Under the pieces are notes generated by a model. That model saw nothing but the letters and a program-made list of their open reading frames with translations, was not told the origin of the DNA and searched no databases. Source: Cyanidioschyzon merolae (lineage: Eukaryota). From it: a stretch of 64,000 nt of DNA. Positions 3,901 through 59,179 of this stretch are shown here, one piece after another. A program made the translations under genes and the position numbers. The stretch is from assembly GCA_000091205.1 (NCBI GenBank), contig AP006500.2; one strand, 5' to 3'. Numbering within the stretch: the stretch's first letter is position 1; each line of letters opens with the position of its first letter.

Positions 3901-5049
3901 ACAAAAACAACGCATCGGTGCGAACTGACCGCCGTGGAAATGGATTACTTGCTTTGCGACGCCGCTGCGGCCGGGGTGGAGTGCCAGGGACGTGTCACAG
4001 GCAACCACGAATCCCCCGCAGGCGCCGTCGTTTGCTGAATCGTTCGGTGCTGGCGGCACTGGAATAATCAGCTCGGCCGAGGCATCCAAATATTGCTGTG
4101 CAATGGGTCCCTCTCTGACATCCTGCCGACCAAGAAGAATTTCATATGAGACCAGATGGCGATTATGAAGATAATCCGTGTGGATTATGGCGAGCGTTGG
4201 ATGCTCCGTCCCGATAAGGAACTCCATGCTCTGGACCTGCACAACGTCGAGCCGAACCTCAAAGGCCTCACCCATGAGGCTGCCCGGTACTACTTTCAAA
4301 AGGCCGTCATAGGCATAGACGGCTAGGCATCGCGCGCTGGGATCAAGCGCCACAAACTCACCAAGCGGGCATCGCCGGCCGAGTTTAGACGCGAGCGACC
4401 CCGCAACGAGTGTCGCCACTCCCTGCAATCTCGTGTCATACTTGATCACGGCAAAGTCCAAACGTTCCGTCAATATGAAGACAGCGTCCGTGCTCTGGTC
4501 TCCAGCATCGGACGGTAGCACCTGTACAGTGCGTGCTGTTTCCGGTACGGGTTTTAAGGGTGCTTCCACTTTGTGCCGTGAGCTTGTTCGAGCACGCTTC
4601 GAACCACTTCGCGGGGTACCCCCGTGCAGATTCAAACTGCTGAGACGCTCGGAGGGTTGCAACGCACCCACCGGGCTCGCGACCCTTGTTCCCCGAGCAG
4701 TCGCACGCTCGCACAGTCCGACACCGGGCAGTACCTCGAGTGCCGCTATTCTGCCAAAGACCGGTAAGTTCGCGTACGCGACTAACGCGCTCTCATGCGA
4801 CTTTGTGCTATCGGTAGAGACTTCATACACTTCGATTCTGTTTAAACGCACCAGAAGCACACTGGGCTGGTCGGGGGAGATGAAGCGCGCAACGCGCGCG
4901 TGCGTCACGATCGACGGTTGCGCAGCAGTAACCACGTAGAGTCCACATCCAATCGACTCTTCAAGCGGGAGTTGAGCGCTTTCCTCGATTGCTGGAGCAC
5001 CTGCTACGGACTCGCTCACACTAACAGGCTCCAGGCTGTCCGTGGACAT
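931..5049 (-). CDS. DDB1: DNA damage-binding protein 1 (DDB1 / CPSF_A family three-propeller scaffold), 1372 aa
   Basis: Single uninterrupted ORF. Motifs match DDB1: YLGSDLVFVGSALGDSQLVRL, YTNIGPIQDL...ITCSGVSRMGSLRIIRNGIGFVEHAAVELDGIKALF, and C-terminal GFVDGDLVERF...IKLLVDDLARLH (compare human ...GFIDGDLIESF...IKVVEELTRIH). Confidence 0.8.
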   Translation of the reverse strand: MSTDSLEPVSVSESVAGAPAIEESAQLPLEESIGCGLYVVTAAQPSIVTHARVARFISPDQPSVLLVRLNRIEVYEVSTDSTKSHESALVAYANLPVFGRIAALEVLPGVGLCERATARGTRVASPVGALQPSERLSSLNLHGGTPRSGSKRARTSSRHKVEAPLKPVPETARTVQVLPSDAGDQSTDAVFILTERLDFAVIKYDTRLQGVATLVAGSLASKLGRRCPLGEFVALDPSARCLAVYAYDGLLKVVPGSLMGEAFEVRLDVVQVQSMEFLIGTEHPTLAIIHTDYLHNRHLVSYEILLGRQDVREGPIAQQYLDASAELIIPVPPAPNDSANDGACGGFVVACDTSLALHPGRSGVAKQVIHFHGGQFAPMRCFCPISGIGGSSKSASVEANRQDHFETGLEMLAAAGYHAHYLLGDRDGFLYVLSVGAEVGMRLECVCESSVASAIAYLGSDLVFVGSALGDSQLVRLLPSQTESPELVQTTLFATASASSHERRESRAERAECQLWFGQVVQCYTNIGPIQDLLVTGDDSFSDGHIITCSGVSRMGSLRIIRNGIGFVEHAAVELDGIKALFTLPSLTSPEWDEFLVVSFTAETRVLRLAAHDELVEVESLAVDEATILAMRLPAEQLALWVTASYVGLVDLTLLERPAVAWTPPSSEQITNAVFDELHKLVLVSTSNAQLYVLQQRKTSLVPVGSQTLPAEVACIHAAYGIVALGTWAESRIRLFRLHEDTGNRWELECIRESALPSTSVPRSVLLTYLDDHGGLMADHGGRAHLCLLVAVGDGRLFAFNVSQPDAKRSGPEPEDLSKCELQLQHPRQLRLGSRPAALNNLQLHGMRYVFAACGRASVIHAHHGTLFCGNVNLRDVTRAVRFHTKGFPDSIAVATEQGLALGGIEHIQQLHIRRHDLREQPRRIAHLRGYICLLTVSIVFGEERHHVRLLNDETLETITSHDLAMNEHGLSLVAIPERDVFVVGTAYVLPSEMEPSRGRILVFSREELLLLNELYTPGAVYTMSALADPSDRTCRFPASAARFLAAGVNNVVILYDWGQSGHGDDYELREVARHLGHVLVLRLEARGDQLLVGDLMKSLCVLQLVLPEGETSDGASPCLKAVAWDYETAWITACAFLNEDTYLAADNSYNLLSLQRNPHETRSEFRHALNRAGAFHLGDLVNVFRRGKLVTEASGNEEAGTGNGHSTIDTESTRDVARASTGTTTADNVSRQTLLFATTAGAIGIIVPLDPAQHRMLSRVEKALRSLTDHPAEAGAADNGHERVRRSPLTSIRLGVEGFAHADWRTPLSERALNSLHSMTCFDLPRRGFVDGDLVERFRELEPTEMEFVAAQVGASIEHIKLLVDDLARLH

Positions 5050-5149: not shown

Positions 5150-6950
5150 GGCGGTGCGTGCGCGCGGCAATTCTGTATAAGGATGCGCTGAGGACGGAGC
5201 GTGCCTCATTGAATGAGGCCTGGACGGACCACTGGACAGAGCTGCATGAAAACGTAACTGGGCACTGCCAAGACCGAATCTATTGGCAACAGTATGCTGC
5301 AGAACTACCGCGCCTCGAACCGGTACCGGAATGGAACGACCCAATCTTCTGGCCTGAATCTGTTCGGACCCTGCTATGCGCAAGCAACCGCAAAACACCT
5401 GGCATCGGCGGTATCCCTGCGGAGAGGATGAAACTGGCGACCCCAAAAGACGGGACAACAGGGACACCATCGATACCAGATGAACCTGACACAACGTTAG
5501 GTAAACGCCTTGTGGAGCTCATCCAACGCATGTTCGAAGAGGCGTACATCCCGGATGTATGGAGGACTGTCGAGGTCGTACCGATCCTCAAAAAGGACTC
5601 TGACATACACACACACACAGACATGAACAGACATGAATATCTACCGGACTATGCGCCTCATCCCGTAAATCATGAAGCTACTTTGCGCCATTCCCAAGAA
5701 ACGGACTCAGATAGGCCTCGTGGAACGCAAGTTCTTCGCCCCAGAACAGGCTGGATTCCGGAGCCACGAGGAGTGCATGAGCCATGCCCTGACCCTAGCT
5801 GAAGTGGTGCAACGTCGCTCCATTAGCGGCCAACAACCAATTTACGTATGCTTCATCGATTTCCAAAAGGTTTTTGACACGGCCCCGCATGAGGCTCTCT
5901 TTTTGAATATGGAACGAGCCGGAGTCTCCGGAAAGTGCCTAGCGTTCTTCCGTGCGCTCTATGTAGACTCATGGATGCACATCCGACTGGGCGACGGCTC
6001 AAGAATCCTTTCGATAAGGATCTGCCATGGACTGCGACAGAGCGACCCCACATCCCCGCTCCTTTTCAATATCTTCATCAACGATCTGCTGAACAACTGC
6101 AGGCAATACGGGCTTGAGGTGCCGTGGATAGACTGTGGAGAGCCCGGTGAAGAGCGCCCACATGGGAACCGCCTCGCAGGCCGTCTATTTGCGGACGATG
6201 TCGTGCTGTTGGCACCCGCCCCGGAAACGCTTGCTGCTAGCATGCAACAAGTCAGCGCCTGGGCCGATCGCTGGGAGATGAGCATAGGAGCATCGAAGTG
6301 CGGCGTCATGGTCATCCATGGAGACTCGCAGCGCATTCGCAGTCGCTCGTGGCGGTTGCAGAATCAGGAAATTCCGATCGTGGAAAAATATCGCTACCTG
6401 GGGGTCTGTCTCACGCCGACGCTCGACGAAAAGGCACACGTTGACGAGATGATCGCCAAGATGCATAGAGGTACAGCGATCGCACGCCCATTCCCATCCG
6501 ACCCCTCTATCTGCATAGCAATCCGTACGAGGGCACTAAGGATGTGTATCATCCAGCCTGCGACCTGGGGTACTGAATGGTGCGGCATGAAGCACCCAAA
6601 TGTCTCGCGTCTGCAGACAGCCGCCAACAGGGCAATGCGACTCGTTGGTGTTGGATGCTCAATGTAGAGCAGAGCAACCACCGCGCTGGCACTCGGACTT
6701 GAACTCCAAATACCCTCGACAGAAGCGATAGCAGCAGGCTGCCGGGCATGTATACGGGCCAAAGGGCCCACCATGTACACCTGGTTCAGTCGGAGTTTCA
6801 TGAAGACCCCAACCCACCGCAAGAACACTTGGATGAAATCGACGCAGATTTGGGTGAAGCGCCTCTTGGGCGAAAACACGCTCCCCAATCGTTCCCCAGA
6901 AATATAGAAGGCTCCCGCCGCCTCAAACGCACGGTTCATGAAACAGTATG
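5150..6950 (+). mobile_element. Degenerate non-LTR (LINE-like) retrotransposon fragment: reverse-transcriptase domain, 5'-truncated and frameshifted
   Basis: RT N-terminal motifs in frame 1 (TPGIGGIPAERMK..., IPDVWRTVEVVPILKK). Core RT in frame 2 (ORF 5672-6667): FIDFQKVFDTAPHEAL, SDPTSPLLFNIFINDL, FADDVVLLAP. The frame switch coincides with a (CA)n run at about 5597-5612. No endonuclease or complete ORF. Confidence 0.75.
5672..6667 (+). pseudogene. Reverse transcriptase (RVT_1-like) ORF fragment of the LINE remnant
   Basis: Contains RT motifs A (F-DF-KVFD), B (SPLLFNIF) and C (FADDVVL). Lacks the N-terminus in frame and has no downstream thumb or zinc-finger region. Confidence 0.7.
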
Positions 6951-36320: not shown

Positions 36321-37848
36321 GGATGCGCATGGAACACTGAACTGCTGCTCGTTCTATGGGCGCTTTTCGGTTCCCCGGAGCTTGATTCGATGTGTGGTCT
36401 CGAATATTGGCGTGCGGACACAGGGGGTTACGGTTCTACACAGCCCAGTCTGGCATTCTCGTTCTCGTTTACAGAGACGCTGCTTCGACGCTTTTGCCGC
36501 TGGAATGCTTGACGTTCCCGGACTCGTCTTGATTCCGATAACGTCTGTGAACAAGCGCTCGCAAGTCAAAAGATATCTCTCGGCAATGTACGCGCACAAA
36601 CATCCATGCTTCCCCTTTTGCTCGCCTGAAGCATGCGCAAATCACGCATGCTTCCAATGAAGACCTGCCTCTGATGCACACAAACTCGACGTCGTCCACT
36701 GTAGCGTTCGCCACAAGCAGATGTCACGCGCGCTCTCACCGAACGCTGCCCAAACGAACGGCTCTGTCCAAAATCCATATCCTCGTCCCTTTCTGGTCAT
36801 CGATGGAACGGCTCGCGACACCAGCGTGATACCCCGCGCGGGATGCGCGCCCAGAGGCTCCCGTCTCTCATGTGTGCATCGAAAGGCGCCCTGGACTCGG
36901 AAGTCAGATATCCAAGCGATCGTCCCGAAGCACAGACCGCGTCACCGCTGTGCACGAAGCGAGCCTCGACAAACCGTAATTTCTCGACTTGATCTCCAGC
37001 GCGGCATCGCGTTGCGGTGCCCGCCCCATCGTGGCCAACACGAAACGACCAGCGTATCCGAGAGCAAGTATGGGTAATGGAACTTGAGGGTAGGCGCTTC
37101 ACCATGGACGCTTTCCCGAAAGCCATTACCCACTCCGAATTCCGGGATCCATGGTCAATCTGAACGTTTTGTCGTCTGAATCGTGCCCGACATCGCGTTC
37201 CGCACGTCCTCTGTCGAAGGCGCTGCGTGCGCTTGCGCGTGCACCTGCCAGCCTTCAGGGCTAACCGATTGCCGAGCTCGAGCCCGTGCTCATAGCGTGC
37301 GACACTGGGCTTGGAGGCAGAGGCGGGCATCACGTACGGCCTCCTGCGCTCGTCAACGGCACGTACCGAGCGAGGAGGAAAGCGTGCAGGTGCCAGAGGG
37401 CGACGCTCGGGGGAGCAGGAGCTGGAGCTGGCGCCGGAGCTGGCGTCCGAGTTGTGGGCGCACCGGCATACCCGGTTGCAGTCCGGTGGCGTCCCTTGCA
37501 GCGGCGCCACCGAGACCGTCTACGAAGCAGACGGGCATGAAATGCGGAGCGTAGATCGCAGCGATCGTCGGTGTATCCACTGCGTCAACAATCGCGTGAA
37601 GCTGCGGTATCGCGAAGCGAACTCGGGCATCAACACCTATTGAGTGCTGACAACGAAGGTGGATGCAAGTGAGCGTGCGGCACATGCACTGCCGTATACA
37701 AGAGACAGAAGCAGGAAGCAGGTGCAGCAAAAGCCTGCAGCGGCAGGTGCTGACGATTGTGACGAACTACCCAAACTTTGGAGCCTACGCTCGAGTTAGC
37801 GTACTCGACCAGCTCCATTTCATTTTGACCTGGAGGCAGAGGTATTCA
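36321..37848. repeat. Direct repeat copy A (1528 bp), close to identical to copy B (~10 single-base differences by eye)
   Basis: Base-by-base identity with 42113-43640 at constant offset 5792, with about 10 single-base differences by eye. Identical ORF-track peptides appear in both copies (e.g. 36797-37510 vs 42589-43302). Sharp boundaries: both copies begin GGATGCGCATGGAACACTG and end GGAGGCAGAGGTATTCA. Confidence 0.95.
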
Positions 37849-38347: not shown

Positions 38348-41300
38348 TCAAGAGCTCGCGACTGCCGTTCGGACACGTCCCTCATCGGTGCCGGACCTTG
38401 CAGCAGAACCGGTCGTTGACGGGTGCATCATTTCGGGTACCGGTGGACACGAGCACACCAGATTCCGATCACCGTACACGTCATCGATGCGAGAGGTTCG
38501 CGGCCAGAACTTGCCGCGCGCGTAGAGCCAGCTTGCCGGGAAGGCGCCAATCTCGCGCGGATACGGCCGATCCCAGGTATCCGCACTGACCACCTCTGCC
38601 GTGTGTGGTGCATACTTGAGCGGATTGTGCTGCGGATCCCAGCGACCCTGCTCAATCTGGCGAATCTCTTCGCGAATCATCAGCATCGCATCGCAAAACC
38701 GATCGAGCTCATCGATACTCTCGCTCTCCGTCGGTTCAATCATAAGCGTTCCAGCCACCGGCCATGACATGGTAGGAGAATGGAATCCATAGTCCTGAAG
38801 GCGTTTCGCCACGTCCGATTCCGTAACACCTGCACTAAGCTTGAACGGACGTAGATCCAGGATAAACTCATGTGCGCATCGTCCGTGCTTCCCGCGATAC
38901 AGAATCGGATACGCCGGCGACAAGCGCGCCGCCATGTAATTCGCATTCAGGATCGCCTGTTCGCTGGCCTCGCGCAAGCCGTCGCTACCCATCATTTTCA
39001 CAAACATCCACACAATCGGCAGGATGGATGCAGAGCCGTACGGCGCCGCCGCAATCGGCCCAATCGCGGTATCGGGGTGTGCGCTCGCCACCGGGCGCAC
39101 CGGATGCGACGGCAGGAAAGGCGCCAGCGCCTCTGTCACGGCGATCGCGCCGACGCCGGGCCCGCCGCCGCCGTGCGGGATCGTCAGCGTCTTGTGCAGG
39201 TTCAGGTGACACGCATCGCCGCCGATCTCCGCGGGCGACGTGAGGCCCATCTGCGCGTTCAGGTTTGCCCCATCGATATACACCAGACCTCCGTTTGTGT
39301 GAATGATGTCGCAGATTTCCTTGATGCCCTCCTCGAACACTCCGTGCGTGGAGGGATACGTGATCATGGCTGCGGCGAGCTGATCTCGATGTTGCTCCGC
39401 GCGAGCACGCAGTTCGGCGATATCGATGTTGCCCTGGGCGTCGGTACCGACCGGGATGATACGCATACCTGCCATTTTGGCGCTCGCTGGGTTTGTTCCA
39501 TGCGCCGATGTCGGTACAATGCATACCTTGCGTTGGTGCTGGCCGCGGGCCTTGTGGTACGCCAAAAAGGTCATCAGGCCGGCGTATTCGCCCTGGGCGC
39601 CGCTGTTCGGCTGCAGAGACACGGCTGCGAATCCTGTGATATCCGCGAGATCACGTTCGAGATCTGCAAACAATCGTTGGTAGCCGCGCAATTGTTCGGG
39701 TGGTGTAAAGGGATGCGGCAGGGAGAACTCTGGCCACGATACAGGGATCATCTCGCTGGTGGCGTTCAGCTTCATCGTGCAGCTGCCCAGAGGAATCATG
39801 GAGTGCACCAGCGACAAATCCTTGGCTGCTAGTTGATGGATGTATCGGAGCATCTTGTGCTCCGTGCGATACTCGTGAAATACCGGGTGCGTCATGTATG
39901 CGGTTGTTCGTTCGAAGGCCTGGGCAAGGTTCGGCTCGAGGCCGCCAAAACCGCTCGGTGGCAGCGATGCAGCGATTTGCTCCAGCTCCTCGCCAGAGCA
40001 TGGACGTTGCGGACCGCGAAAAGCTGAGACAAGCTCCTGGAGGTCGTCGCGAGTATGCGTTTCGTCGAACGATACAGAAATTGAGCGGGGCCCCAGAGAT
40101 CGTACATTCAGTTTTGCCGCATCGCAGCGCGCTAGCACCGCTTGCGCCGCCTCTGTGGTCGGGTAATCGATGCGCACGGTATCAAAAATTGCAGCCTTTT
40201 CGCTGACACCCACGCCGACTGCAGCGGCGAAGGTGCGGGCGAAGCGTTGTACGCGATTGGCGATAGCACGGAGGCCATCCGGTCCATGATACAGCCCATA
40301 CATTGCGGAAATGTTCGCAAGCAACGCTTGAGCGGTGCAGACGTTGCTTGTTGCCTTATCGCGACGAATATGCTGTTCGCGGGTCTGCAGCGCCATGCGC
40401 AGTGCCGGTTTGCCCTGAGCGTCGCGACTAATGCCGATAATTCTCCCTGGCATGAGACGCTTGAGATCGTCACGGCAGGCGAAAAACGCAGCCGATGGAC
40501 CACCATACCCCATGGGAACACCGAAGCGCTGTGCACTGCCCACGGCGATATCAGCTCCCCATTCTCCAGGCGGTCGCAGCATCGTCAGAGCCAGGAGATC
40601 TGATGCAACAACGACGCGTGTGCCATGCGCGTGCGCATTCTCCACAAACGACGTATAGTCATGGATCGTGCCGTCCGTTGCGGGATACTGCACCAGCGCA
40701 CCACACAAGTCGGCTCCATCCCACTGCACCTGCTGCCAGTTGTCCACGACAAGCTCGATGTCCATGGGCTCTGCACGCACCTTCATGACTGCAATCGTTT
40801 GCGGATGCACATCCTTGTCGACGAAAAATCGAAGCTTCTTGCGCTTCGAGACAGCAGCACACATACTCATCGCTTCGGCTGCCGCAGTTCCCTCGTCAAG
40901 CAGTGAGGCATTCGCTATAGGCAGGCCCGTGAGGTCCCCCACCATTGTCTGGAAGTTCAGCAGGGATTCCAAGCGTCCCTGCGCAACTTCAGCTTGATAT
41001 GGAGTGTACTGCGTATACCAGGCAGGGTTTTCCAGGATGTTTCGCTGAATGACTGGAGGCATGATGGTACCATAGTACCCGCAGCCGATAAAGTTACGTC
41101 GCAGTTCGTTCTGTTTCGCGATCTGCCGCAGCTCAGCGAGCACCTCAGACTCGGCGCGCTTTGGCCCAACGCTCAGCTTCCGCGTCGTGCGAATCGACTT
41201 GGGAATCGTCTGATCCATCAGTTCTTCGATACTTTTCACACCAAGAACCTGAAGCATTTTTTCGTTCGCTTCCGGGTTCCCAGAGCCGGTATGTCGTTTG

Positions 41301-41554
41301 TAGAACAGGTCCAGCGGCGCAAACGCCGAACTCGATGCCCCTCGCCGGAACTCTGCCTGTAAACGCCAACTCAACGCCGACCTCAGTGAATGGTAAGCAC
41401 CCGCGACGCCTACACCACGTACAGGAGCTCCTACCACTGAATTACCGGTGTGGTAGCGAGAGCGTGCTGAATTAAGCCAGCGCTGCGTGTCCGCACCGAG
41501 CGCACGTCGACGAGTTACCGACCCGCTGACGCGAGTGAGCAAGAGGCGAAACAT
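38348..41554 (-). CDS. GLDC: Glycine dehydrogenase (decarboxylating), glycine-cleavage P-protein, mitochondrial precursor (1068 aa)
   Basis: Full-length single ORF with mitochondrial-type presequence MFRLLLTRVSGSVTRRRALG and conserved two-domain GcvP sequence throughout (e.g. DxFYKRHTG, TEAAQAVLARCDAA, PLP-region HLNLHKTLTIPHGGGGPG). Confidence 0.95.
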   Translation of the reverse strand: MFRLLLTRVSGSVTRRRALGADTQRWLNSARSRYHTGNSVVGAPVRGVGVAGAYHSLRSALSWRLQAEFRRGASSSAFAPLDLFYKRHTGSGNPEANEKMLQVLGVKSIEELMDQTIPKSIRTTRKLSVGPKRAESEVLAELRQIAKQNELRRNFIGCGYYGTIMPPVIQRNILENPAWYTQYTPYQAEVAQGRLESLLNFQTMVGDLTGLPIANASLLDEGTAAAEAMSMCAAVSKRKKLRFFVDKDVHPQTIAVMKVRAEPMDIELVVDNWQQVQWDGADLCGALVQYPATDGTIHDYTSFVENAHAHGTRVVVASDLLALTMLRPPGEWGADIAVGSAQRFGVPMGYGGPSAAFFACRDDLKRLMPGRIIGISRDAQGKPALRMALQTREQHIRRDKATSNVCTAQALLANISAMYGLYHGPDGLRAIANRVQRFARTFAAAVGVGVSEKAAIFDTVRIDYPTTEAAQAVLARCDAAKLNVRSLGPRSISVSFDETHTRDDLQELVSAFRGPQRPCSGEELEQIAASLPPSGFGGLEPNLAQAFERTTAYMTHPVFHEYRTEHKMLRYIHQLAAKDLSLVHSMIPLGSCTMKLNATSEMIPVSWPEFSLPHPFTPPEQLRGYQRLFADLERDLADITGFAAVSLQPNSGAQGEYAGLMTFLAYHKARGQHQRKVCIVPTSAHGTNPASAKMAGMRIIPVGTDAQGNIDIAELRARAEQHRDQLAAAMITYPSTHGVFEEGIKEICDIIHTNGGLVYIDGANLNAQMGLTSPAEIGGDACHLNLHKTLTIPHGGGGPGVGAIAVTEALAPFLPSHPVRPVASAHPDTAIGPIAAAPYGSASILPIVWMFVKMMGSDGLREASEQAILNANYMAARLSPAYPILYRGKHGRCAHEFILDLRPFKLSAGVTESDVAKRLQDYGFHSPTMSWPVAGTLMIEPTESESIDELDRFCDAMLMIREEIRQIEQGRWDPQHNPLKYAPHTAEVVSADTWDRPYPREIGAFPASWLYARGKFWPRTSRIDDVYGDRNLVCSCPPVPEMMHPSTTGSAARSGTDEGRVRTAVASS

Positions 41555-42112: not shown

Positions 42113-43640
42113 GGATGCGCATGGAACACTGAACTGCTGCTCGTTCTATGGGCGCTTTTCGGTTCCCCGGAGCTTGATTCGATGCGTGGTCTCGAATATT
42201 GGCGTGCGGACACAGGGGGTTACGGTTCTACACAGCCCAGTCTGGCATTCTCGTTCTCGTTTACAGAGACGCTGCTTCGACGCTTTTGCCGCTGGAATGC
42301 TTGACGTTCCCGGACTCGTCTTGATTCCGATAACGTCTGTGAACAAGCGCTCGCAAGTCAAAAGATATCCCTCGGCAATGTACGCGCACAAACATCCATG
42401 CTTCCCCTTTTGCTCGCCTGAAGCATGCGCAAATCACGCATGCTCCCAATGAAGACCTGCCTCTGATGCACACAAACTCGACGTCGTCCACTGTAGCGTT
42501 CGCCACAGGCAGATGTCACGCGCGCTCTCACCGAACGCTGCCCAAACGAACGGCTCTGTCCAAAATCCATATCCTCGTCCCTTTCTGGTCATCGATGGAG
42601 CGGCTCGCGACACCAGCGTGATACCCCGCGCGGGATGCGCGCCCAGAGGCTCCCGTCTCTCATGTGTGCATCGAAAGGCGCCCTGGACTCGGAAGTCAGA
42701 TATCCAAGCGATCGTCCCGAAGCACAGACCGCGTCACCGTTGTGCACGAAGCGAGCCTCGACAAACCGTAATTTCTCGACTTGATCTCCAGCGCGGCATC
42801 GCGTTGCGGTGCCCGCCCCATCGTGGCCAACACGAAACGACCAGCGTATCCGAGAGCAAGTATGGGTGATGGAACTTGAGGGTAGGCGCTTCACCATGGA
42901 CGCTTTCCCGAAAGCCATTACCCACTCCGAATTCCGGGATCCATGGTCAATCTGAACGTTTTGTCGTCGGAATCGTGCCCGACATCGCGTTCCGCACGTC
43001 CTCTGTCGAAGGCGCTGCGTGCGCTTGCGCGTGCACCTGCCAGCCTTCAGGGCTAACCGATTGCCGAGCTCGAGCCCGTGCTCATAGCGTGCGACACTGG
43101 GCTTGGAGGCAGAGGCGGGCATCACGTACGGCCTCCTGCGCTCGTCAACGGCACGTACCGAGCGAGGAGGAAAGCATGCAGGTGCCAGAGGGCGACGCTC
43201 GGGGGAGCAGGAGCTGGAGCTGGCGCCGGAGCTGGCGTCCGAGTTGTGGGCGCACCGGCATACCCGGTTGCAGTCCGGTGGCGTCCCTTGCAGCGGCGCC
43301 ACCGAGACCGTCTACGAAGCAGACGGGCATGAAATGCGGAGCGTAGATCGCAGCGATCGTCGGTGTATCCACTGCGTCAACAATCGCGTGAAGCTGCGGT
43401 ATCGCGAAGCGAACTCGGGCATCAACACCTATTGAGTGCTGACAACGAAGGTGGATGCAAGTGAGCGTGCGGCACATGCACTGCCGTATACAAGAGACAG
43501 AAGCAGGAAGCAGATGCAGCAAAAGCCTGCAGCGGCAGGTGCTGACGATTGTGACGAACTACCCAAACTTTGGAGCCTACGCTCGAGTTAGCGTACTCGA
43601 CCAGCTCCATTTCATTCTGACCTGGAGGCAGAGGTATTCA
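42113..43640. repeat. Direct repeat copy B (1528 bp), same orientation as copy A
   Basis: See copy A. Starts 559 bp upstream of the GcvP ATG; copy A starts 93 bp upstream of the BCD1-like ATG. Confidence 0.95.
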
Positions 43641-54507: not shown

Positions 54508-56008
54508 ACGATCAGGGGTGTCGATTCGCCCTACCTTTCGTGAGAGCAGCGTTCCGTATAAGCCCTGTGCAGAGACAGCGCTCCGGGTCGTTGCGGAGCC
54601 ACCGCGCCACGTTCGAAGCGGGGTGTCTGCTCGCTGCTCAGAAGGCGCAAGTCACTCGACTCCACGGGTACGCACTCCAGGTCTGCCCAGTGGTCGGACA
54701 ATTTGAGGTGCTCGACCCGAGCACCCCTATGAACTGCACGAAAGACGTGCAACTCCCTGCTATACTTGTTCTGAGCACCTTTTCTGTTGCAGAGCTTCGC
54801 ACGACTGGCGTCGGGGCTTTCGGAGCCAGCCGCAACGCTACCGGTGCCCGAGCCAGCGGCAATAGCGACGACGCTCTAGCGCAGGTTGCGCTCGTGCGCT
54901 TCCGAACAACTCCTGCATTTGCATTGGGTCACTGCTGAGGCGGTTCGGACGAGTGATATATCTGGGGACGGAAAGCTGCAACCATTCTTGTGACAGCCAG
55001 CACAGCGATAGTTTCGTCATGGGTATTGCGAGAGAGAGAACACGGGCGATTGACCTGGTGTGATGAAGAGTCTGCCGGTTTAGAGCCGTTTCTGTCTCCT
55101 GGTACCAGCGGACTGATCAACTCGAGAACACGCCGCATAGCAAGCAACGATAATTTCTGGTAGATCCCTCCATAGCGAGCGCATCGCTACCCGAACCTGC
55201 ACATTGGCTCGATGAGCACGCTGCACCGCGAGCGCTTGTATTGCCCAGCGGGTCGCACAAAGCACGCGAACATGTGCGGACAGCAACATGGAGACGCGCA
55301 CCTGCATGATTCTTGCGTGCCGCTGGTTACTCTGGCGACCTTGGATAATAGCAGCGAACCTCGGATGCGTATCCAGAGGGCATTTTTGGAACGCAAGGCT
55401 CGCAATGCGCATCACGCTTGTACGAGCATCTGCATTTATTTTGGGCAAGGCGCTCATCCTTCGGAATGCATCCTCAGCGTGCATCAGTGGGATCGCATGA
55501 GTACTTTTCACGGGTCTCTGGATGGCGTTTGAAAAGCCTGCTCCGTGGAACACGTTGTGGTCGACCCGCCGCTCTTGCGACGCCTACTGCGATGCGGCTC
55601 CAGCTGCAAGAGTGCAGCGCCGTGTGCATGTAGCGCATACCTGCAGGCTTTTCCGCGCACGAAGCCCACAGCGCTCGGCTCGCAGAGGCATGCTCACAAA
55701 TGCGATACAGCTAGCAGATATATCACATCTTCCGCTGAACGGAAACGCGTCAGCTAATGCCACGTGCCGAGTCAGGAAAACGCAGCGTGCGCTCAGACCC
55801 GTCTGTCTTTCAGGGCAGACTCGACACCTGGTAGAACCCACGACCTGATCGTTTGCTCTATGGCGACCTAGTCCTGGTCGCGGATAGACCCTGGAAGTAT
55901 GTTGCGGAATGATGGATGCTCTAACAGGTGCACCGAACAACCACCTGATGGGGGATGGCTCATTCGGGCGAAAAACCCATCGATCATAGAAGAAATTGCA
56001 GGCTAGAT

Positions 56009-56468
56009 GCCATTCTTTGCGGATGTTCGCAGCAGACTCGGCACACGATGCAACGCGCGAAACGACCAGAACATCGGAGAGGCAGCATGGGTCATGAGAC
56101 CTGAACATAAACCACAGAATAATGCCATTCTTTGCGGATGTTCGCAGCAGACTCGGCACACGATGCAACGCGCGAAACGACCAGAACATCGGAGAGGCAG
56201 CATGGGTCATGAGACCTGAACATAAACCACAGAATAATGCCATTCTTTGCGGATGTTCGCAGCAGACTCGGCACACGATGCAACGCGCGAAACGACCAGA
56301 ACATCGGAGAGGCAGCATGGGTCATGAGACCTGAACATAAACCACAGAATAATGCCATTCTTTGCGGATGTTCGCAGCAGACTCGGCACACGATGCAACG
56401 CGCGAAACGACCAGAACATCGGAGAGGCAGCATGGGTCATGAGACCTGAACATAAACTACAGAATAAT
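56009..56468. repeat. Tandem array of 4 x 115-bp units (minisatellite), copies 1-3 identical, copy 4 with a single-base variant
   Basis: Unit gccattctttgcggatgttcgcagcagactcggcacacgatgcaacgcgcgaaacgaccagaacatcggagaggcagcatgggtcatgagacctgaacataaaccacagaataat recurs at 56009, 56124, 56239 and 56354. Produces the identical repeated peptides in ORF-track entries 56003-56203, 56092-56433 and 56207-56617. Confidence 0.95.
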
Positions 56469-56714
56469 GGATGCTTTCCAGAACACCAAAATGCATCGCC
56501 TAATCTGGTATCCTTCGTCCTTGTAAATGTTCCGTTGAACAATTGAGCACACGTCATCCGTTCGTTGCCCGCGGAGGCGCCTCTCTCAAGGGCGGTGTGC
56601 GATCGCGAGGGCGTCACGCACGGCGCGGCTGCATGCGTGCGTTGCGTGCGCGCGCTCAGCCGAGTCTCTTGGGCAAGCGCTTGCCTAGCTGCCTGTTTGC
56701 GTCAAAGTAGGCTG

Positions 56715-57621
56715 ATGTACAGTCTAACGAAGCTCAGTCGGCAACTCTGGAAGTTGGAGAGAACTAGTGTGCGTTCCTTTTTCGTGGAACGGGCGTTTAC
56801 CCTGGGAACCCGAAGTACACGGGGTCGGTTGAGCACCAGTGCGTCGGTCTCGAGCAGTGCGCAACCAGCCACAGCAGCCGCAACGGCTCCGGAACCTCCC
56901 AAGCCACCGCCGAAACCAGACCACGTGCGTCTGAAGATTGATGGAAGAGAGGTGGAGGTTCCTCGGGCGAGCACAGTGATTCAAGCGTGTCAAGCTGCTG
57001 GCGTGAACATCCCTCACTTTTGCTACCACGAGCGGCTGTCTGTGGCTGGCAACTGCCGCATGTGCTTGGTTGAGGTTGAAAAGATGCCCAAGCTTGCAAT
57101 CAGTTGTGCGCTGCCCGTCATGGATGGCATGAGCATCATAACAGACTCGCCGCGGGTGAAGAAAAGCCGTGAGGCTGTGCTTGAGTTTTTGCTCAAGTCG
57201 CACCCGCTGGACTGTCCAATATGCGGTAAGTTTTCAGCACCGTCGAACTTTCAACTCAAGAAAAGAGCAAAATACTAACCGTTTCGACTTTATAGACCAA
57301 GGTGGCGAATGTCAACTACAAGAGCTAAGTATGGTGTTTGGTTCCGATCGAGGACGCTACTACGAGTACAAGCGCACCGTCGACGACAAGTACTGGGGCC
57401 CGCTCATCAAAACCGTCATGACGAGATGCATCCACTGTACGCGCTGCGTTCGTTTTGCCGAGGAGGTCGCAGGTGTTGCGGATATCGGCACCGCCGGACG
57501 TGGCGAATCGACCGAGATCACCATGTATTTGCCGGAAAAGTTCTTCCAATCGGAGCTCAGTGGCAACGTGATCGATTTATGTCCAGTTGGAGCACTTACT
57601 CGAAAGCGTTATGAGCATTGA
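56715..57621 (+). CDS. NADH:ubiquinone oxidoreductase 75-kDa subunit (NDUFS1/NuoG/Nad11) N-terminal Fe-S domain only, mitochondrial precursor; two exons join(56715..57225,57296..57621), 278 aa
   Basis: Exon 1 ends ...HPLDCPIC(G). Exon 2 begins (D)QGGECQLQE, restoring the universal NuoG motif CPICDQGGECDLQ only when the 70-nt GTAAGT...TAG intron is removed. Also [35 protein letters not shown] (2Fe-2S N1b), [10 protein letters not shown]...CPVGALT (4Fe-4S N4). The frame stops right after [13 protein letters not shown]. Presequence [28 protein letters not shown]. Confidence 0.75.
57226..57295 (+). other. Spliceosomal intron (70 nt, phase 1) with strict consensus signals
   Basis: 5' splice site GTAAGT at 57226, branch point TACTAAC at 57274-57280, 3' splice site TATAG ending at 57295. 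Removal fuses the two NuoG reading frames exactly at the conserved DQGGEC motif. Confidence 0.85.
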
Positions 57622-58333
57622 AAACGAATTTGGGCAAGACTTTTCAAAAATTGATGACGAACTCTATGCACTGATGAATGGAATATTCCGTTATCCCTGT
57701 CCGAGAGTGAAGATGAAACTCATTGCGGATACCTGATGGACTACCTGAGCACGGAGTTTGTATCTATACAGTATTTCATGACGTCCTATGATGAAGCGGA
57801 CCCAGACAAGTCCACTGAGATGCTTGGCTCTGCATGGAAGTCGCTGGTGAAAGCTCGATACGTGCCGCGATTCTCAAGTGCCGGCCGAAGATCAAGTCCA
57901 TGGTTTCATGCGCGCGTACGTGAATTCTCGGGTGTGTATGGAAGAATGCGGGTATGCATCGGCTACCGAATGCTCTGTGGCGCTTGCATTCGCGGCACTG
58001 TATCGTACACATCGTGATGTTGGTTAACAGCAACAACAACTCGCCCGAGAAATGACACTCCCTGAGACCCGGCTACCTGCGACTGCACATGGCGATGCGG
58101 TAACCAGTCAGCAGTGGAAATGGCAACCTCGAACATAAGAAAATTCGCAGTTTTCTTCCTATACTCCTGTCGAAGAACAAGCAGTGCGTGACTTCACAAG
58201 CTCGCAGCGCGCTGTGGTCAAGTCGCATACAGAACCCGACGCCGTGACACGCGGGCGGGCGATGGTCTCTGGTCGACCTCCAAAACATACCATCGCTCGA
58301 TAAAATTTTTTGGTTACTGCAAGAGACTCAGTG

Positions 58334-59179
58334 TCAGCTGGTCAACGTGGAGATTGGCCGATGTTTCGGACCATCCATCAGACCCAGCGGCTGCGAGACC
58401 GTCGATCCGTTTGGATTGACACTAGTCGCCCAAGTCGGGTGCAGTGCAAGCGGCCCGTCGGTGCCCGGAGCGCCCCGCGGTTCGCCCACCAGCGCAGGAC
58501 CTGGAGGCACCCACTTGCCGTTCTCCATTGCGGTCCACAGGGCAGATGCGTCACAAGGATACGCCAGTTGCGGGCTCGGTGTCACCGCCCTGGATCTCGG
58601 TGAAAGCGCACCAGTGGTTACTGTATCGCGAACAGTATCGACGTCATACTGAATCGCGACAAGAATGCGCCCAGCGAAGCGCCCGGCCCGTGCTCGACCT
58701 TTCTTCAGCGGATAGTGGAATGAATACCAAAGTTCACTCCGCCCGGAAGTGTCAAACTTTATCCGCGATAGCGGAATACGTACGCGACTAACGACTTCGG
58801 ACGTTTCCGTACAGCAGAATCCATGGCGCATTTCGCAAATATCGCAGACGATAACAAAATCAGGAAGCGTAAACGCGTTACATTGGCCGCTTTCGAGACA
58901 AAAGCGCTGCGGTCCACGACTCTTACGCCTGAACGTAACAACGTTTGTGGCGAACTCCGTTTCTTCGTTCATACGAAGCTGGAAGCTTGTATCTAGCCAC
59001 ACACGGACAAAGAGCCGACGGGGAAACATCCCGACTTCAACGTCACGAATCTCACGCACCGTGACGGACACGCTCGAACGCATACCATTTGGCGTGTAAA
59101 TCGTCTGTGCGAGCGACGGCGTCTCTCTGGAAAACTGCATCAGTTTTTCAAAACAATAGAATTGTCGTGACCTGTACAC
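58334..59179 (-). CDS. Hypothetical protein, possible C2-like beta-sandwich domain
   Basis: 281-aa ORF. N-terminal half has alternating hydrophobic beta-strand pattern (VSVTVREIRDVEV...LFVRVWLD...FTLPDFVIVCDI...RIPLSRI) reminiscent of C2 domains. Weak. Confidence 0.3.
   Translation of the reverse strand: MYRSRQFYCFEKLMQFSRETPSLAQTIYTPNGMRSSVSVTVREIRDVEVGMFPRRLFVRVWLDTSFQLRMNEETEFATNVVTFRRKSRGPQRFCLESGQCNAFTLPDFVIVCDICEMRHGFCCTETSEVVSRVRIPLSRIKFDTSGRSELWYSFHYPLKKGRARAGRFAGRILVAIQYDVDTVRDTVTTGALSPRSRAVTPSPQLAYPCDASALWTAMENGKWVPPGPALVGEPRGAPGTDGPLALHPTWATSVNPNGSTVSQPLGLMDGPKHRPISTLTS

What the first reader, a model, noticed from the sequence alone, without database searches (positions are those of the whole stretch)
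56715..58050. Stand-alone nuclear gene for only the N-terminal Fe-S module of complex-I 75-kDa subunit, and it carries the only intron in the window
The encoded 278-aa precursor matches NDUFS1/NuoG/Nad11 through clusters N1b, N5 and N4 and ends immediately after CPVGALT. The ~450-aa molybdopterin-like C-terminal domain is not in frame and not recognisable anywhere in the 2.5 kb downstream. A split Nad11, with the Fe-S module and the C-terminal domain encoded by separate genes or genomes, is known from some protist lineages. Here the Fe-S half appears as a mitochondrially targeted, nuclear, intron-containing gene. It could instead be a truncated paralogue or pseudogene, but an intact presequence, an intact open frame and a perfectly spliceable intron argue for function. 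The intron uses yeast-like rigid signals (GTAAGT/TACTAAC/TAG), whereas about 25 neighbouring genes are intronless. That is consistent with a genome retaining a minimal spliceosome for very few introns.
Basis: partly seen in the sequence, partly recalled or inferred. Interest (0 to 1): 0.68.

Follow-up and report, generated by a model that had tools for sequence, protein, structure and literature searches.

The report
Split complex-I 75-kDa subunit, red alga
This is the already annotated Cyanidioschyzon merolae nuclear gene for the iron-sulfur half of the largest complex I subunit; the other half is made by a separate nuclear gene on another chromosome, an arrangement found in every red algal class sampled and resembling split versions known from other protists.

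Summary
ATG 56715 to 57225, a 70-nt intron (57226-57295; GTAAGT, TACTAAC, TAG) and 57296-57621 encode 278 aa. This product is 100% identical to the annotated C. merolae 10D protein BAM82506.1 / XP_005538542.1. It contains only the N1b, N5 and N4 cluster modules and stops six codons after CPVGALT.

The "split" interpretation is correct. C. merolae has a second nuclear gene with the same annotated product name (P0334, 565 aa). It consists of a presequence followed by the entire molybdopterin-like C-terminal domain and lies on a different chromosome-sized record. The same two-gene arrangement occurs in all five red algal classes represented among the hits.

Glaucophytes have the N-half in the nucleus and, at least in Gloeochaete, the C-half in mtDNA. 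The two halves overlap by about 10 residues: N-halves end GA(L/I/V/F)TxKx(Y/F)xF and C-halves begin GALTSKPYAF. This suggests duplication followed by complementary truncation.

The gene is under strong purifying selection (dN/dS 0.04-0.07 against Cyanidiococcus), and its intron and stop positions are conserved there.

Split Nad11/NDUFS1 is already known in stramenopiles and Euglenozoa, and C. merolae's few rigid introns are well studied. The finding is therefore a new member of a known kind and of modest interest.

The parts
56715..57225 (+). Exon 1 of the N-half gene (codons 1-170 plus the first base of codon 171). It encodes the presequence, the N1b 2Fe-2S module and the first three N5 ligands (HPLDCPIC).
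   Evidence: tBLASTn control. The first in-frame ATG is at 56715 (ORF listing).
56715..56918 (+). Probable mitochondrial presequence plus an Ala/Pro-rich linker (aa 1-68). The cleavage site is not determined.
   Evidence: Residues 1-40 contain 9 R+K, 2 D+E and 11 S+T. Only 8 of 46 residues are identical to Cyanidiococcus, whereas the mature part is 92% identical. Homology to solved NDUFS1 chains begins at about aa 69-72. Targeting is inferred and was not tested.
57021..57107 (+). Cluster N1b motif C-x10-C-x2-C-x13-C (aa 103-131).
   Evidence: Fer2_4 match.
57201..57312 (+). Cluster N5 motif H-x3-C-x2-C-x5-C (aa 163-176). The intron splits it inside the Asp171 codon (phase 1).
57226..57295 (+). 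Spliceosomal intron of 70 nt and 37% GC. The 5' splice site is GTAAGT, the branch site TACTAAC is at 57273-57279, and the 3' splice site is TATAG. If the intron is retained, reading runs into TAA at 57276-57278, inside the branch site. That would give a 187-aa product lacking the fourth N5 ligand and the whole N4 site.
   Evidence: (read-through ORF ...[21 protein letters not shown]). The position and phase are the same in Cyanidiococcus (84 nt; GTAAGT, AACTAAC, TATAG), with the signals conserved and the interior diverged.
57296..57621 (+). Exon 2, covering the rest of N5, the N4 module and the short tail ...[13 protein letters not shown], followed by the stop TGA at 57619-57621.
   Evidence: The stop aligns with the Cyanidiococcus stop.
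57427..57585 (+). Cluster N4 motif C-x2-C-x2-C-x(n)-C-P (aa 215-267).
   Evidence: Fer4_Nqo3 match.
57586..57618 (+). The overlap segment [11 protein letters not shown]. It is a degenerate copy of the GALTSKPYAF stretch that is also present, perfectly conserved, at the start of the mature C-half (P0334 residues 32-41).
   Evidence: Junction table.
58334..59179 (-). Convergent downstream neighbour, a conserved ORF of unknown function with no Pfam match. It bounds the locus, leaving about 710 nt between the two gene ends, so there is no room for C-terminal-domain exons.
   Evidence: no Pfam family; 52% identical to the syntenic Cyanidiococcus ORF, E 1e-92.

Best explanation
The window is nuclear DNA of the red alga Cyanidioschyzon merolae 10D. 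The locus is the functional gene for the N-terminal, cofactor-bearing half of the complex I 75-kDa subunit (NDUFS1 / Nad11 / NuoG).

Shown by sequence:
- The spliced mRNA encodes a 30.9-kDa precursor.
- About 210 residues (23.5 kDa counted from residue 69) carry all ligands for clusters N1b, N5 and N4.
- The molybdopterin-like C-terminal domain is encoded by a separate, uninterrupted nuclear gene on another chromosome. This is P0334, 62 kDa as a precursor and about 58.5 kDa counted from Gly32, with its own N-terminal extension.

Inferred:
- Both precursors are imported into mitochondria. The two polypeptides then assemble non-covalently at the tip of the peripheral arm, in the positions of the two domains of a normal single-chain NDUFS1.
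- The small half conducts electrons from NDUFV1 (FMN and cluster N3) through N1b, N4 and N5 towards NDUFS8. The large half acts as a cofactor-less scaffold.
- The split predates the red algal radiation.
- Both halves keep a copy of the boundary segment GALT-x-K-x-Y-x-F, so the split most likely arose from two full or overlapping gene copies that lost complementary parts, not from a single break.

The intron is an ordinary member of C. merolae's tiny, rigid-signal intron set. It is shared with Cyanidiococcus. If retained, it truncates the protein before cluster N4.
For: - Identity and gene model: (100% match to BAM82506.1 / XP_005538542.1).
- Domain content and ligands. The N-half matches residues 26-255 of a solved 733-aa complex I 78-kDa subunit (PDB 9f5x chain C, E 6e-98) and the equivalent region of mammalian, plant and yeast chains.
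- Partner gene in the same organism: one search lists P0334, named as C. merolae 10D, with Fer4_NDSU1, Molybdopterin and NADH_dhqG_C. It is a single uninterrupted 1698-nt ORF in contigs L006-L008. It aligns to residues 228-714 of mammalian NDUFS1 chains (E 1e-113) and is absent from the window.
- Red algal distribution of short N-halves: Cyanidiococcus, Porphyridium, Timspurckia, Rhodosorus, Pyropia, Gracilariopsis, Gracilaria, Agarophyton and Bangiopsis.
- Red algal distribution of stand-alone C-halves: Hildenbrandia, Agarophyton, Galdieria, Rhodosorus, Porphyridium, Timspurckia, Cyanidium, Cyanidiococcus, Erythrolobus and Porphyra.
- The halves are not adjacent in Rhodosorus, Porphyridium, Gracilariopsis, Cyanidiococcus or a Logan assembly contig of unnamed source that shares the neighbouring L2 gene with Cyanidiococcus.
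- Overlap at the junction.
- Purifying selection: dN/dS 0.044 for aa 69-278 and 0.067 for aa 47-278, with dS about 1.0-1.1.
- Conserved intron position, stop codon and flanking synteny (L2, MoaA-like radical SAM, this gene, convergent ORF).
- Precedent that a split NDUFS1 assembles into complex I: the Euglena gracilis structure with NDUFS1A and NDUFS1B (PDB 8iuf; PMC10884005). Gene-level nad11 splits at the same domain boundary occur in stramenopiles (PMC4824035).
Against: - No protein-level or complex-level data for any red alga were found, so import, presequence cleavage and assembly are inferred.
- Splicing of this particular intron in C. merolae was not checked against reads here. It rests on the public annotation and on conservation.
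- Absence of a third, full-length copy in C. merolae rests on its non-appearance in two ranked hit lists, not on a whole-genome search.
- The duplication-then-truncation origin is inferred from a roughly 10-residue overlap. Convergent retention for structural reasons is not excluded, because Phalansterium and Gloeochaete C-halves begin at the same residue.
Confidence: 0.9

Rival explanations
1. The gene is a truncated paralogue or decaying pseudogene, and a normal full-length NDUFS1 does the work elsewhere in the genome.
For: Only the formal point that the whole genome could not be searched here.
Against: - dN/dS is 0.04-0.07 at dS of about 1.
- All 12 cluster ligands are intact.
- The same short form is conserved across red algal classes and glaucophytes.
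- No full-length red algal protein appears above the first non-red full-length hit in either ranked search. The only other C. merolae hit is the C-half alone.
Confidence: 0.02
2. It is one conventional gene whose further downstream exons, missed by the reader, encode the molybdopterin-like domain.
Against: - No similarity to the C-terminal domain exists anywhere in the 64 kb.
- The stop codon is conserved in position in Cyanidiococcus.
- A conserved convergent gene starts about 710 nt downstream.
- The C-half sits on a different record, with its own ATG and N-terminal extension.
Confidence: 0.01
3. The C-terminal domain was lost or replaced by an unrelated protein, as proposed for diplonemids and kinetoplastids and as reported for Euglena. 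On this view the N-half works without an orthologous partner.
For: Euglenozoa have N-half-only NDUFS1 genes of 250-385 aa (PMC12699882).
Against: - A clearly orthologous C-half exists in C. merolae and in the other red algae. It scores E 1e-113 against mammalian NDUFS1 residues 228-714 and is 46% identical to the Chlorokybus full-length protein.
- It is highly conserved among red algae, for example 51% identity between C. merolae and Hildenbrandia over 92% of the query.
Confidence: 0.04
4. The two halves have diverged in function, for example the C-half serving in another complex or the N-half acting as a soluble ferredoxin-like carrier. The locus would then not simply be half of a complex I subunit.
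For: There is no direct evidence. It is allowed only because assembly was not tested, and N-terminal modules of this type also occur in hydrogenases and formate dehydrogenases (lower hits).
Against: The best matches of both halves, by a wide margin, are mitochondrial complex I chains. Both halves are conserved at the level of typical complex I core subunits. In Euglena both parts of a split NDUFS1 sit in complex I.
Confidence: 0.03

Closest known systems
Split nad11 / Nad11 of stramenopiles (eustigmatophytes, brown algae and the wider PX clade, some diatoms, Cafeteria, Thraustochytrium), from Sevcikova et al. 2016, PMC4824035
   Same: The break falls at the same boundary, between the Fe-S N-terminal region and the molybdopterin-like C-terminal region. 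In eustigmatophytes the N-half is a separate nuclear gene. In brown algae the C-half is a nuclear gene with a transit peptide.
   Different: In those lineages at least one half stays in mtDNA, or both do as two ORFs in diatoms. In red algae both halves are nuclear and unlinked. The red algal N-half has an ordinary N-terminal presequence-like extension, whereas eustigmatophyte N-halves were reported without one.
Euglena gracilis complex I with NDUFS1A and NDUFS1B (PDB 8iuf, 8j9h-j; PMC10884005), and the N-half-only NDUFS1 of kinetoplastids and diplonemids (PMC12699882)
   Same: The N-terminal Fe-S half is encoded by its own nuclear gene. In Euglena there is structural proof that a two-polypeptide NDUFS1 functions within complex I.
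   Different: Euglena breaks inside subdomain II of the C-terminal domain: NDUFS1A is 385 aa and matches the C. merolae protein only at E 2e-47. Its partner has little sequence similarity to canonical NDUFS1. The red algal break lies just after the last N4 ligand, and the partner is a plainly orthologous C-terminal domain.
Glaucophyte Nad11, with a nuclear N-half (Cyanophora EP00741_P004578, P0089; Gloeochaete P0052) and a mitochondrial nad11 of 495 aa (Gloeochaete YP_009092459.1, P0161)
   Same: The truncation point of the N-half and the start of the C-half (GALTSKPYAF) are the same as in red algae, including the overlap.
   Different: The C-half is still mitochondrial. By simple identity the Gloeochaete C-half is no closer to red algal C-halves (37-39%) than to full-length Reclinomonas or Chlorokybus proteins (40-42%). 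A shared origin is therefore not shown.
Canonical single-chain NDUFS1 / NuoG (for example PDB 9f5x chain C, ovine 6zk9 chain 3, Arabidopsis 7ar7 chain G)
   Same: The N-half aligns end to end with the first 210-255 or so residues (E 6e-98 to 4e-91), with the same cluster ligands. The C-half aligns with residues from about 228 to 714.
   Different: There are two polypeptides from two unlinked genes in place of one chain of about 700 aa.

Membership tests
Complex I 75-kDa subunit (NDUFS1 / NuoG / Nad11), N-terminal Fe-S module | 2Fe-2S ferredoxin-like domain with four Cys ligands (cluster N1b) | tested here: met
   Fer2_4 at E 1e-20; the C-x10-C-x2-C-x13-C motif at aa 103-131.
Complex I 75-kDa subunit (NDUFS1 / NuoG / Nad11), N-terminal Fe-S module | His-ligated 4Fe-4S site (cluster N5), H-x3-C-x2-C-x5-C | tested here: met
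   NADH-G_4Fe-4S_3 at E 5e-15. The motif at aa 163-176 is present only after the intron is removed.
Complex I 75-kDa subunit (NDUFS1 / NuoG / Nad11), N-terminal Fe-S module | 4Fe-4S site N4, C-x2-C-x2-C...C-P | tested here: met
   Fer4_Nqo3 at E 5e-32, covering positions 1-67 of the 67-position profile; the motif at aa 215-267.
Canonical single-chain NDUFS1 | A molybdopterin-oxidoreductase-like C-terminal domain contiguous with the Fe-S module in the same polypeptide | tested here: not met
   The stop falls six codons after CPVGALT. No C-terminal-domain similarity is found in the window. The domain is encoded by the separate gene P0334.
Split Nad11 / NDUFS1 | A separate gene in the same organism encodes the C-terminal domain | tested here: met
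   P0334 is 565 aa and is named as C. merolae 10D. It carries Fer4_NDSU1, Molybdopterin and NADH_dhqG_C. Its longest record is 866,983 bp, against 1,253,087 bp for the N-half.
Split Nad11 / NDUFS1 | No full-length copy in the genome | tested here: inconclusive
   No full-length red algal protein appears in the top 120 hits of either search. A whole-genome search of C. merolae was not possible with these tools.
Split Nad11 / NDUFS1 | Both halves are expressed as separate products and assembled in complex I | not testable with these tools
   The evidence is indirect. Transcriptome ORFs flagged complete exist for an N-half (P0016, Bangiopsis) and for a C-half (P0311, source organism not named). 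The Euglena structure provides a precedent.
C. merolae-type spliceosomal intron | Rigid GTAAGT 5' splice site, TACTAAC-like branch site and YAG 3' splice site | tested here: met
   This consensus is described as highly conserved and yeast-like in Cyanidiales (bioRxiv 10.64898/2026.05.17.725761).
C. merolae-type spliceosomal intron | The intron is removed in vivo | not tested
   The annotated protein equals the spliced product, and the intron is conserved in Cyanidiococcus. No reads were examined here, and the gene lists of the splicing papers were not available as text.

The most novel reading that the evidence does not exclude
The red algal and glaucophyte arrangements may descend from a single ancient event. 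A nuclear copy of mitochondrial nad11 kept only the Fe-S half, while the mitochondrial copy kept only the C-half. Glaucophytes would preserve that intermediate, and red algae later moved the C-half to the nucleus as well. The roughly 10-residue overlap (GALT-x-K-x-Y-x-F in both halves) would be the surviving trace. The split would then be a rare genomic character bearing on branching order within Archaeplastida, because green plants have a single-chain gene. It would also be a clear example of piecewise transfer of an organelle gene.
Probability: 0.15. Interest if true: 0.55.

Novelty: new member of a known kind. Interest (0 to 1): 0.33.

Why it matters
The finding shows that the largest core subunit of complex I is made from two unlinked nuclear genes throughout red algae. 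It adds a major eukaryotic lineage, and one where both halves are nuclear, to the list of split Nad11/NDUFS1 cases, and it points to glaucophytes as a possible intermediate state.

Practical consequences:
- Both C. merolae genes carry the same product name, and automated orthology or completeness pipelines may score either as a fragment.
- The Cyanidiococcus model (P0003) is mis-spliced by 6 nt, which destroys the N5 motif.
- C. merolae is genetically tractable, so it would be a convenient system for asking why this domain boundary breaks repeatedly and how the N-module assembles from two pieces.

The intron adds nothing new. It belongs to an already catalogued and well-studied set.

Tried and rejected
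- Adjacent C-half. I looked for a C-half gene next to the N-half in other red algae, as expected if a nuclear full-length gene had simply acquired a stop. None was found within 10 kb in Rhodosorus, Porphyridium or Gracilariopsis, or within 6 kb in Cyanidiococcus and a Logan assembly contig of unnamed source.
- C-terminal loss. This was considered, as proposed for diplonemids and kinetoplastids, and rejected once P0334 was found.
- Finding the red algal C-half. A direct ranked search with a generic C-terminal query would have been swamped by bacterial, plant and animal sequences. Instead, the 50%-identity representative library was searched with a C-terminal fragment. Stand-alone candidates were picked by length and match position and named by cluster look-up. 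The Hildenbrandia hit was then used as the query.
- Literature. Searches were nad11 + split + molybdopterin; Cyanidioschyzon + complex I + NDUFS1; nad11 + glaucophyte + red algae; red alga + NDUFS1; and nad11 + Cyanidioschyzon. No paper in the held library describes the red algal or glaucophyte split. This is absence in an open-access subset, not proof that it is unpublished.
- Intron catalogue. The supplement of the 2026 Cyanidiales intron preprint is not held, and the long-read splicing paper does not name this gene in its text. Per-gene splicing efficiency could therefore not be cited.
- Exact look-up of P0001 in the contig index returned nothing. Chromosome identity rests on the cluster table.
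- Shared origin with glaucophytes. Simple pairwise identity gives no support. No proper phylogeny was built.
- Intron position across red algae. The C. merolae intron is not shared with Rhodosorus, whose nearest intron lies 7 codons downstream. Gracilariopsis and the Logan contig are intronless, and Porphyridium shows no interruption across the conserved Fe-S domains.
Full report
**1. What is at the coordinates**

Reading from the ATG at 56715 gives exon 1 up to 57225. A 70-nt interval follows at 57226-57295. It begins GTAAGT, contains TACTAAC at 57273-57279 and ends TATAG. Exon 2 runs from 57296 to the TGA at 57619-57621. The joined frame is 837 nt and encodes 278 aa.

Pfam detects three adjacent modules and nothing else:
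- Fer2_4, aa 70-145
- NADH-G_4Fe-4S_3, aa 152-189
- Fer4_Nqo3, aa 205-272, matching positions 1-67 of the 67-position profile

The ligand patterns for all three clusters are intact:
- N1b, C-x10-C-x2-C-x13-C, aa 103-131
- N5, H-x3-C-x2-C-x5-C, aa 163-176
- N4, C-x2-C-x2-C...C-P, aa 215-267

The N5 pattern exists only after splicing, because the intron sits in phase 1 inside the Asp171 codon of CPIC-D-QGGEC. Without splicing, the frame runs into TAA at 57276-57278, inside the branch-site heptamer, after ...[21 protein letters not shown].

**2. Whose gene it is**

The 278-aa product is 100% identical over its whole length to [quoted passage not shown]. The accessions are BAM82506.1, XP_005538542.1 and UniRef100_M1UWD3, on a record of 1,253,087 bp.

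C. merolae is the textbook intron-poor eukaryote. It has 27 annotated introns in 26 genes, raised to 39 in a 2026 preprint. [quoted passage not shown] About 85% of its introns carry an in-frame stop.

A scan of both strands for GTAAGT...(A/C/T)ACTAAC...YAG finds this intron plus one weak candidate at 4764-5034 (+). That candidate lies antisense to a 1372-aa ORF and is probably chance.

**3. Is the C-terminal domain nearby?**

No. tBLASTn of C-terminal fragments from four full-length-type homologues, plus the chimeric-looking hit P0002, gives nothing better than E = 0.34 anywhere in the 64 kb. The N-half control gives E = 5e-162. The organism's own C-half gives nothing better than E = 0.72.

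About 710 nt downstream, a convergent ORF (58334-59179, minus strand) begins. It has no Pfam match but is 52% identical (E 1e-92) to the ORF in the same position in Cyanidiococcus yangmingshanensis.

The neighbourhood is syntenic between the two species: ribosomal protein L2, a MoaA-type radical-SAM gene, this gene, then the convergent ORF.

**4. Where the other half is**

Ranked searches with a generic C-terminal query would have been swamped, so I took an indirect route:
- I searched the 50%-identity representative library with a C-terminal fragment.
- I picked hits of about 480-620 aa whose match began near their N-terminus.
- I looked up their names.

One of these, P0152 (547 aa), is from the red alga Hildenbrandia rubra. 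It is a stand-alone C-terminal domain preceded by a short N-terminal extension.

Using P0152 as the query returned stand-alone C-halves, each with Fer4_NDSU1, Molybdopterin and NADH_dhqG_C and no Fe-S N-terminal domains, from:
- Agarophyton
- Galdieria sulphuraria, G. phlegrea and G. partita
- Rhodosorus
- Porphyridium
- Timspurckia
- Cyanidium caldarium
- Cyanidiococcus
- Erythrolobus
- Porphyra (named)
- C. merolae 10D itself (P0334)

P0334 is 565 aa and has the same product name as the N-half. Its longest record is 866,983 bp, which is a different chromosome-sized record from the N-half's.

In three environmental contigs encoding the identical protein, the gene is one uninterrupted 1698-nt ORF. 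P0334 aligns with residues 228-714 of mammalian NDUFS1 chains at E about 1e-113.

The first full-length protein in that ranked list is a green alga (Chlorokybus, 444 bits), well below all red algal C-halves. No full-length red algal protein appears in either list.

**5. How general it is**

Short N-halves with the same three domains occur in the following:
- Cyanidiococcus
- a Logan assembly contig of unnamed source that shares the neighbouring L2 gene with Cyanidiococcus
- Porphyridium
- Timspurckia
- Rhodosorus
- Bangiopsis and Purpureofilum
- Pyropia
- Gracilariopsis, Gracilaria and Agarophyton

Together with the C-halves, this covers Cyanidiophyceae, Porphyridiophyceae, Stylonematophyceae, Bangiophyceae and Florideophyceae. 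The class assignments are from general knowledge.

The two genes are not neighbours in Rhodosorus, Porphyridium, Gracilariopsis, Cyanidiococcus or the Logan contig.

Glaucophytes also have a nuclear N-half (Cyanophora P0089, Gloeochaete P0052). The Gloeochaete mitochondrial nad11 (YP_009092459.1, 495 aa) is a C-half only. A stand-alone C-half also turned up in the amoebozoan Phalansterium.

**6. The junction**

Every N-half continues past the last N4 ligand as CPV-GA(L/I/V/F)T-x-K-x-(Y/F)-x-F and then stops or trails off. C. merolae and Cyanidiococcus are the most degenerate, with RKRYEH and RKEFKP.

Every C-half has a variable N-terminal extension followed by a perfectly conserved GALTSKPYAF-x-x-R-x-WEL, often preceded by (P/A)(V/I). 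The two polypeptides therefore overlap by about 10-12 residues of the ancestral sequence PVGALTSKPYAF.

A single break in one gene cannot leave the same segment on both products. The simplest origin is two copies that lost complementary parts, for example a mitochondrial copy and a nuclear copy. This is an inference.

In C. merolae, Cyanidiococcus, Cyanidium, Porphyridium and Hildenbrandia, an Arg lies three residues before the Gly of GALT. That would fit a mitochondrial processing site immediately before GALT. This is a speculation from the sequence and was not tested.

**7. Is it functional?**

I re-derived the Cyanidiococcus coding sequence with the correct acceptor. It is also 278 aa, with an 84-nt intron at the identical position and phase. 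Against this sequence:
- The mature part (aa 69-278) is 194/210 identical, with dN 0.046, dS 1.04 and dN/dS 0.044.
- Residues 47-278 give dN/dS 0.067.
- The first 46 residues are only 8/46 identical, as expected for a presequence.

The DNA alignment shows mostly third-position changes in the exons. [quoted passage not shown]

The N-terminal 40 residues contain 9 R+K, 2 D+E and 11 S+T, consistent with mitochondrial targeting. That remains inferred.

**8. Mechanism**

From established knowledge of complex I, the N-terminal domain of the 75-kDa subunit carries N1b, N4 and N5. These lie between N3 in NDUFV1 and N6a in NDUFS8. In mitochondria the C-terminal domain carries no cofactor and acts as a scaffold.

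The C. merolae N-half aligns over its whole mature length to that region of solved chains, for example PDB 9f5x chain C residues 26-255 at E 6e-98. The most likely picture is a roughly 23.5-kDa electron-carrying polypeptide and a roughly 58.5-kDa scaffold polypeptide. They would occupy the places of the two domains of a normal NDUFS1.

That such an arrangement works is shown structurally only for Euglena gracilis, which has NDUFS1A and NDUFS1B (PDB 8iuf; PMC10884005). There the break lies further into the C-terminal domain, and the partner has little sequence similarity to canonical NDUFS1 according to PMC12699882.

**9. Comparison with what is known, and novelty**

Gene-level splits of nad11 at this same boundary are documented at least four times in stramenopiles, with various combinations of mitochondrial and nuclear halves (PMC4824035). 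Euglenozoa have a nuclear N-half gene (PMC12699882).

Five literature searches in the held open-access library found no description of the red algal or glaucophyte case. However, both C. merolae genes are in the public annotation under the same product name.

I therefore rate this a new member of a known kind. It is real, functional and lineage-wide. The distinctive points are that both halves are nuclear and unlinked and that a boundary overlap is retained. It is not mechanistically surprising.

The intron is a member of an already catalogued set and adds no novelty.

**10. Limits**

The complete C. merolae genome could not be searched, so the absence of a third, full-length copy rests on ranked hit lists. 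No reads, proteomics or structures for red algal complex I were available.

A common origin of the red algal and glaucophyte splits is not supported by simple identity: the Gloeochaete C-half is 37-39% identical to red algal C-halves against 40-42% to full-length proteins. It was not tested phylogenetically.

Noticed in passing
window 56007-56469: A near-perfect tandem repeat of 4.0 copies of a 115-bp unit (99% matches) ends about 245 bp upstream of the N-half start codon. It generates a ladder of spurious overlapping ORFs on both strands. Whether it is promoter-related or a minisatellite is unknown. It was not compared with Cyanidiococcus.
   Followed up: partly
L004 6407-6490 (Cyanidiococcus yangmingshanensis JANCYV010000015.1); protein P0003: The deposited Cyanidiococcus model (241 aa...CPICGGECQ...) uses an acceptor 6 nt downstream of the conserved TATAG. 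This drops Asp-Gln and destroys the N5 spacing. With the C. merolae-type splice and an upstream in-frame ATG, the gene encodes 278 aa with an intact N5 motif.
   Followed up: yes
window about 57650-57700 versus L004 about 6850-6900: Within the otherwise diverged 3' flank, two short blocks are conserved between C. merolae and Cyanidiococcus 30-80 nt after the stop: CTCTnTGCACTGATGAA and GTTATCCCTGT. They may be a 3'-UTR or 3'-end processing element. This was not examined further.
   Followed up: no
window 36321-37848 and 42113-43640: A 1,528-bp direct repeat (99.3% identical) flanks the glycine decarboxylase P-protein gene at 38348-41554 (-). Each copy carries an identical 237-aa ORF with no Pfam match, at 36797-37510 (-) and 42589-43302 (-). 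It could be a recent segmental duplication or a mobile element.
   Followed up: partly
P0052 and P0089 (nuclear), P0161 (Gloeochaete mtDNA nad11, YP_009092459.1): Glaucophytes also have a split Nad11. The Fe-S half is nuclear, and the mitochondrial nad11 gene of Gloeochaete (495 aa) encodes only the C-terminal domain, starting MSSIFVKYIGALTSKPYAF. The glaucophyte mitogenome paper held in the library mentions nad11 only for gene order.
   Followed up: partly
P0175 (Phalansterium solitarium), P0140, P0164, P0206, P0256: Stand-alone C-halves with N-terminal extensions also occur outside red algae, for example in the amoebozoan Phalansterium. P0140 keeps a Cys-less remnant of the N4 region in front of GALTSKPYAF, which looks like a degenerating intermediate.
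   Followed up: no
L001 10400-10502 (Rhodosorus marinus): Rhodosorus has an intron after ...GGECDLQ, 7 codons downstream of the C. merolae / Cyanidiococcus intron position, and a second intron further on. Gracilariopsis and the Logan contig of unnamed source are intronless. The Cyanidiales intron position was not found in the other red algae examined.
   Followed up: partly
window 4764-5034 (+): This is the only other GTAAGT...CACTAAC...YAG candidate in the window. It lies antisense to the 1372-aa ORF at 931-5049 (-) and is probably a chance match.
   Followed up: no
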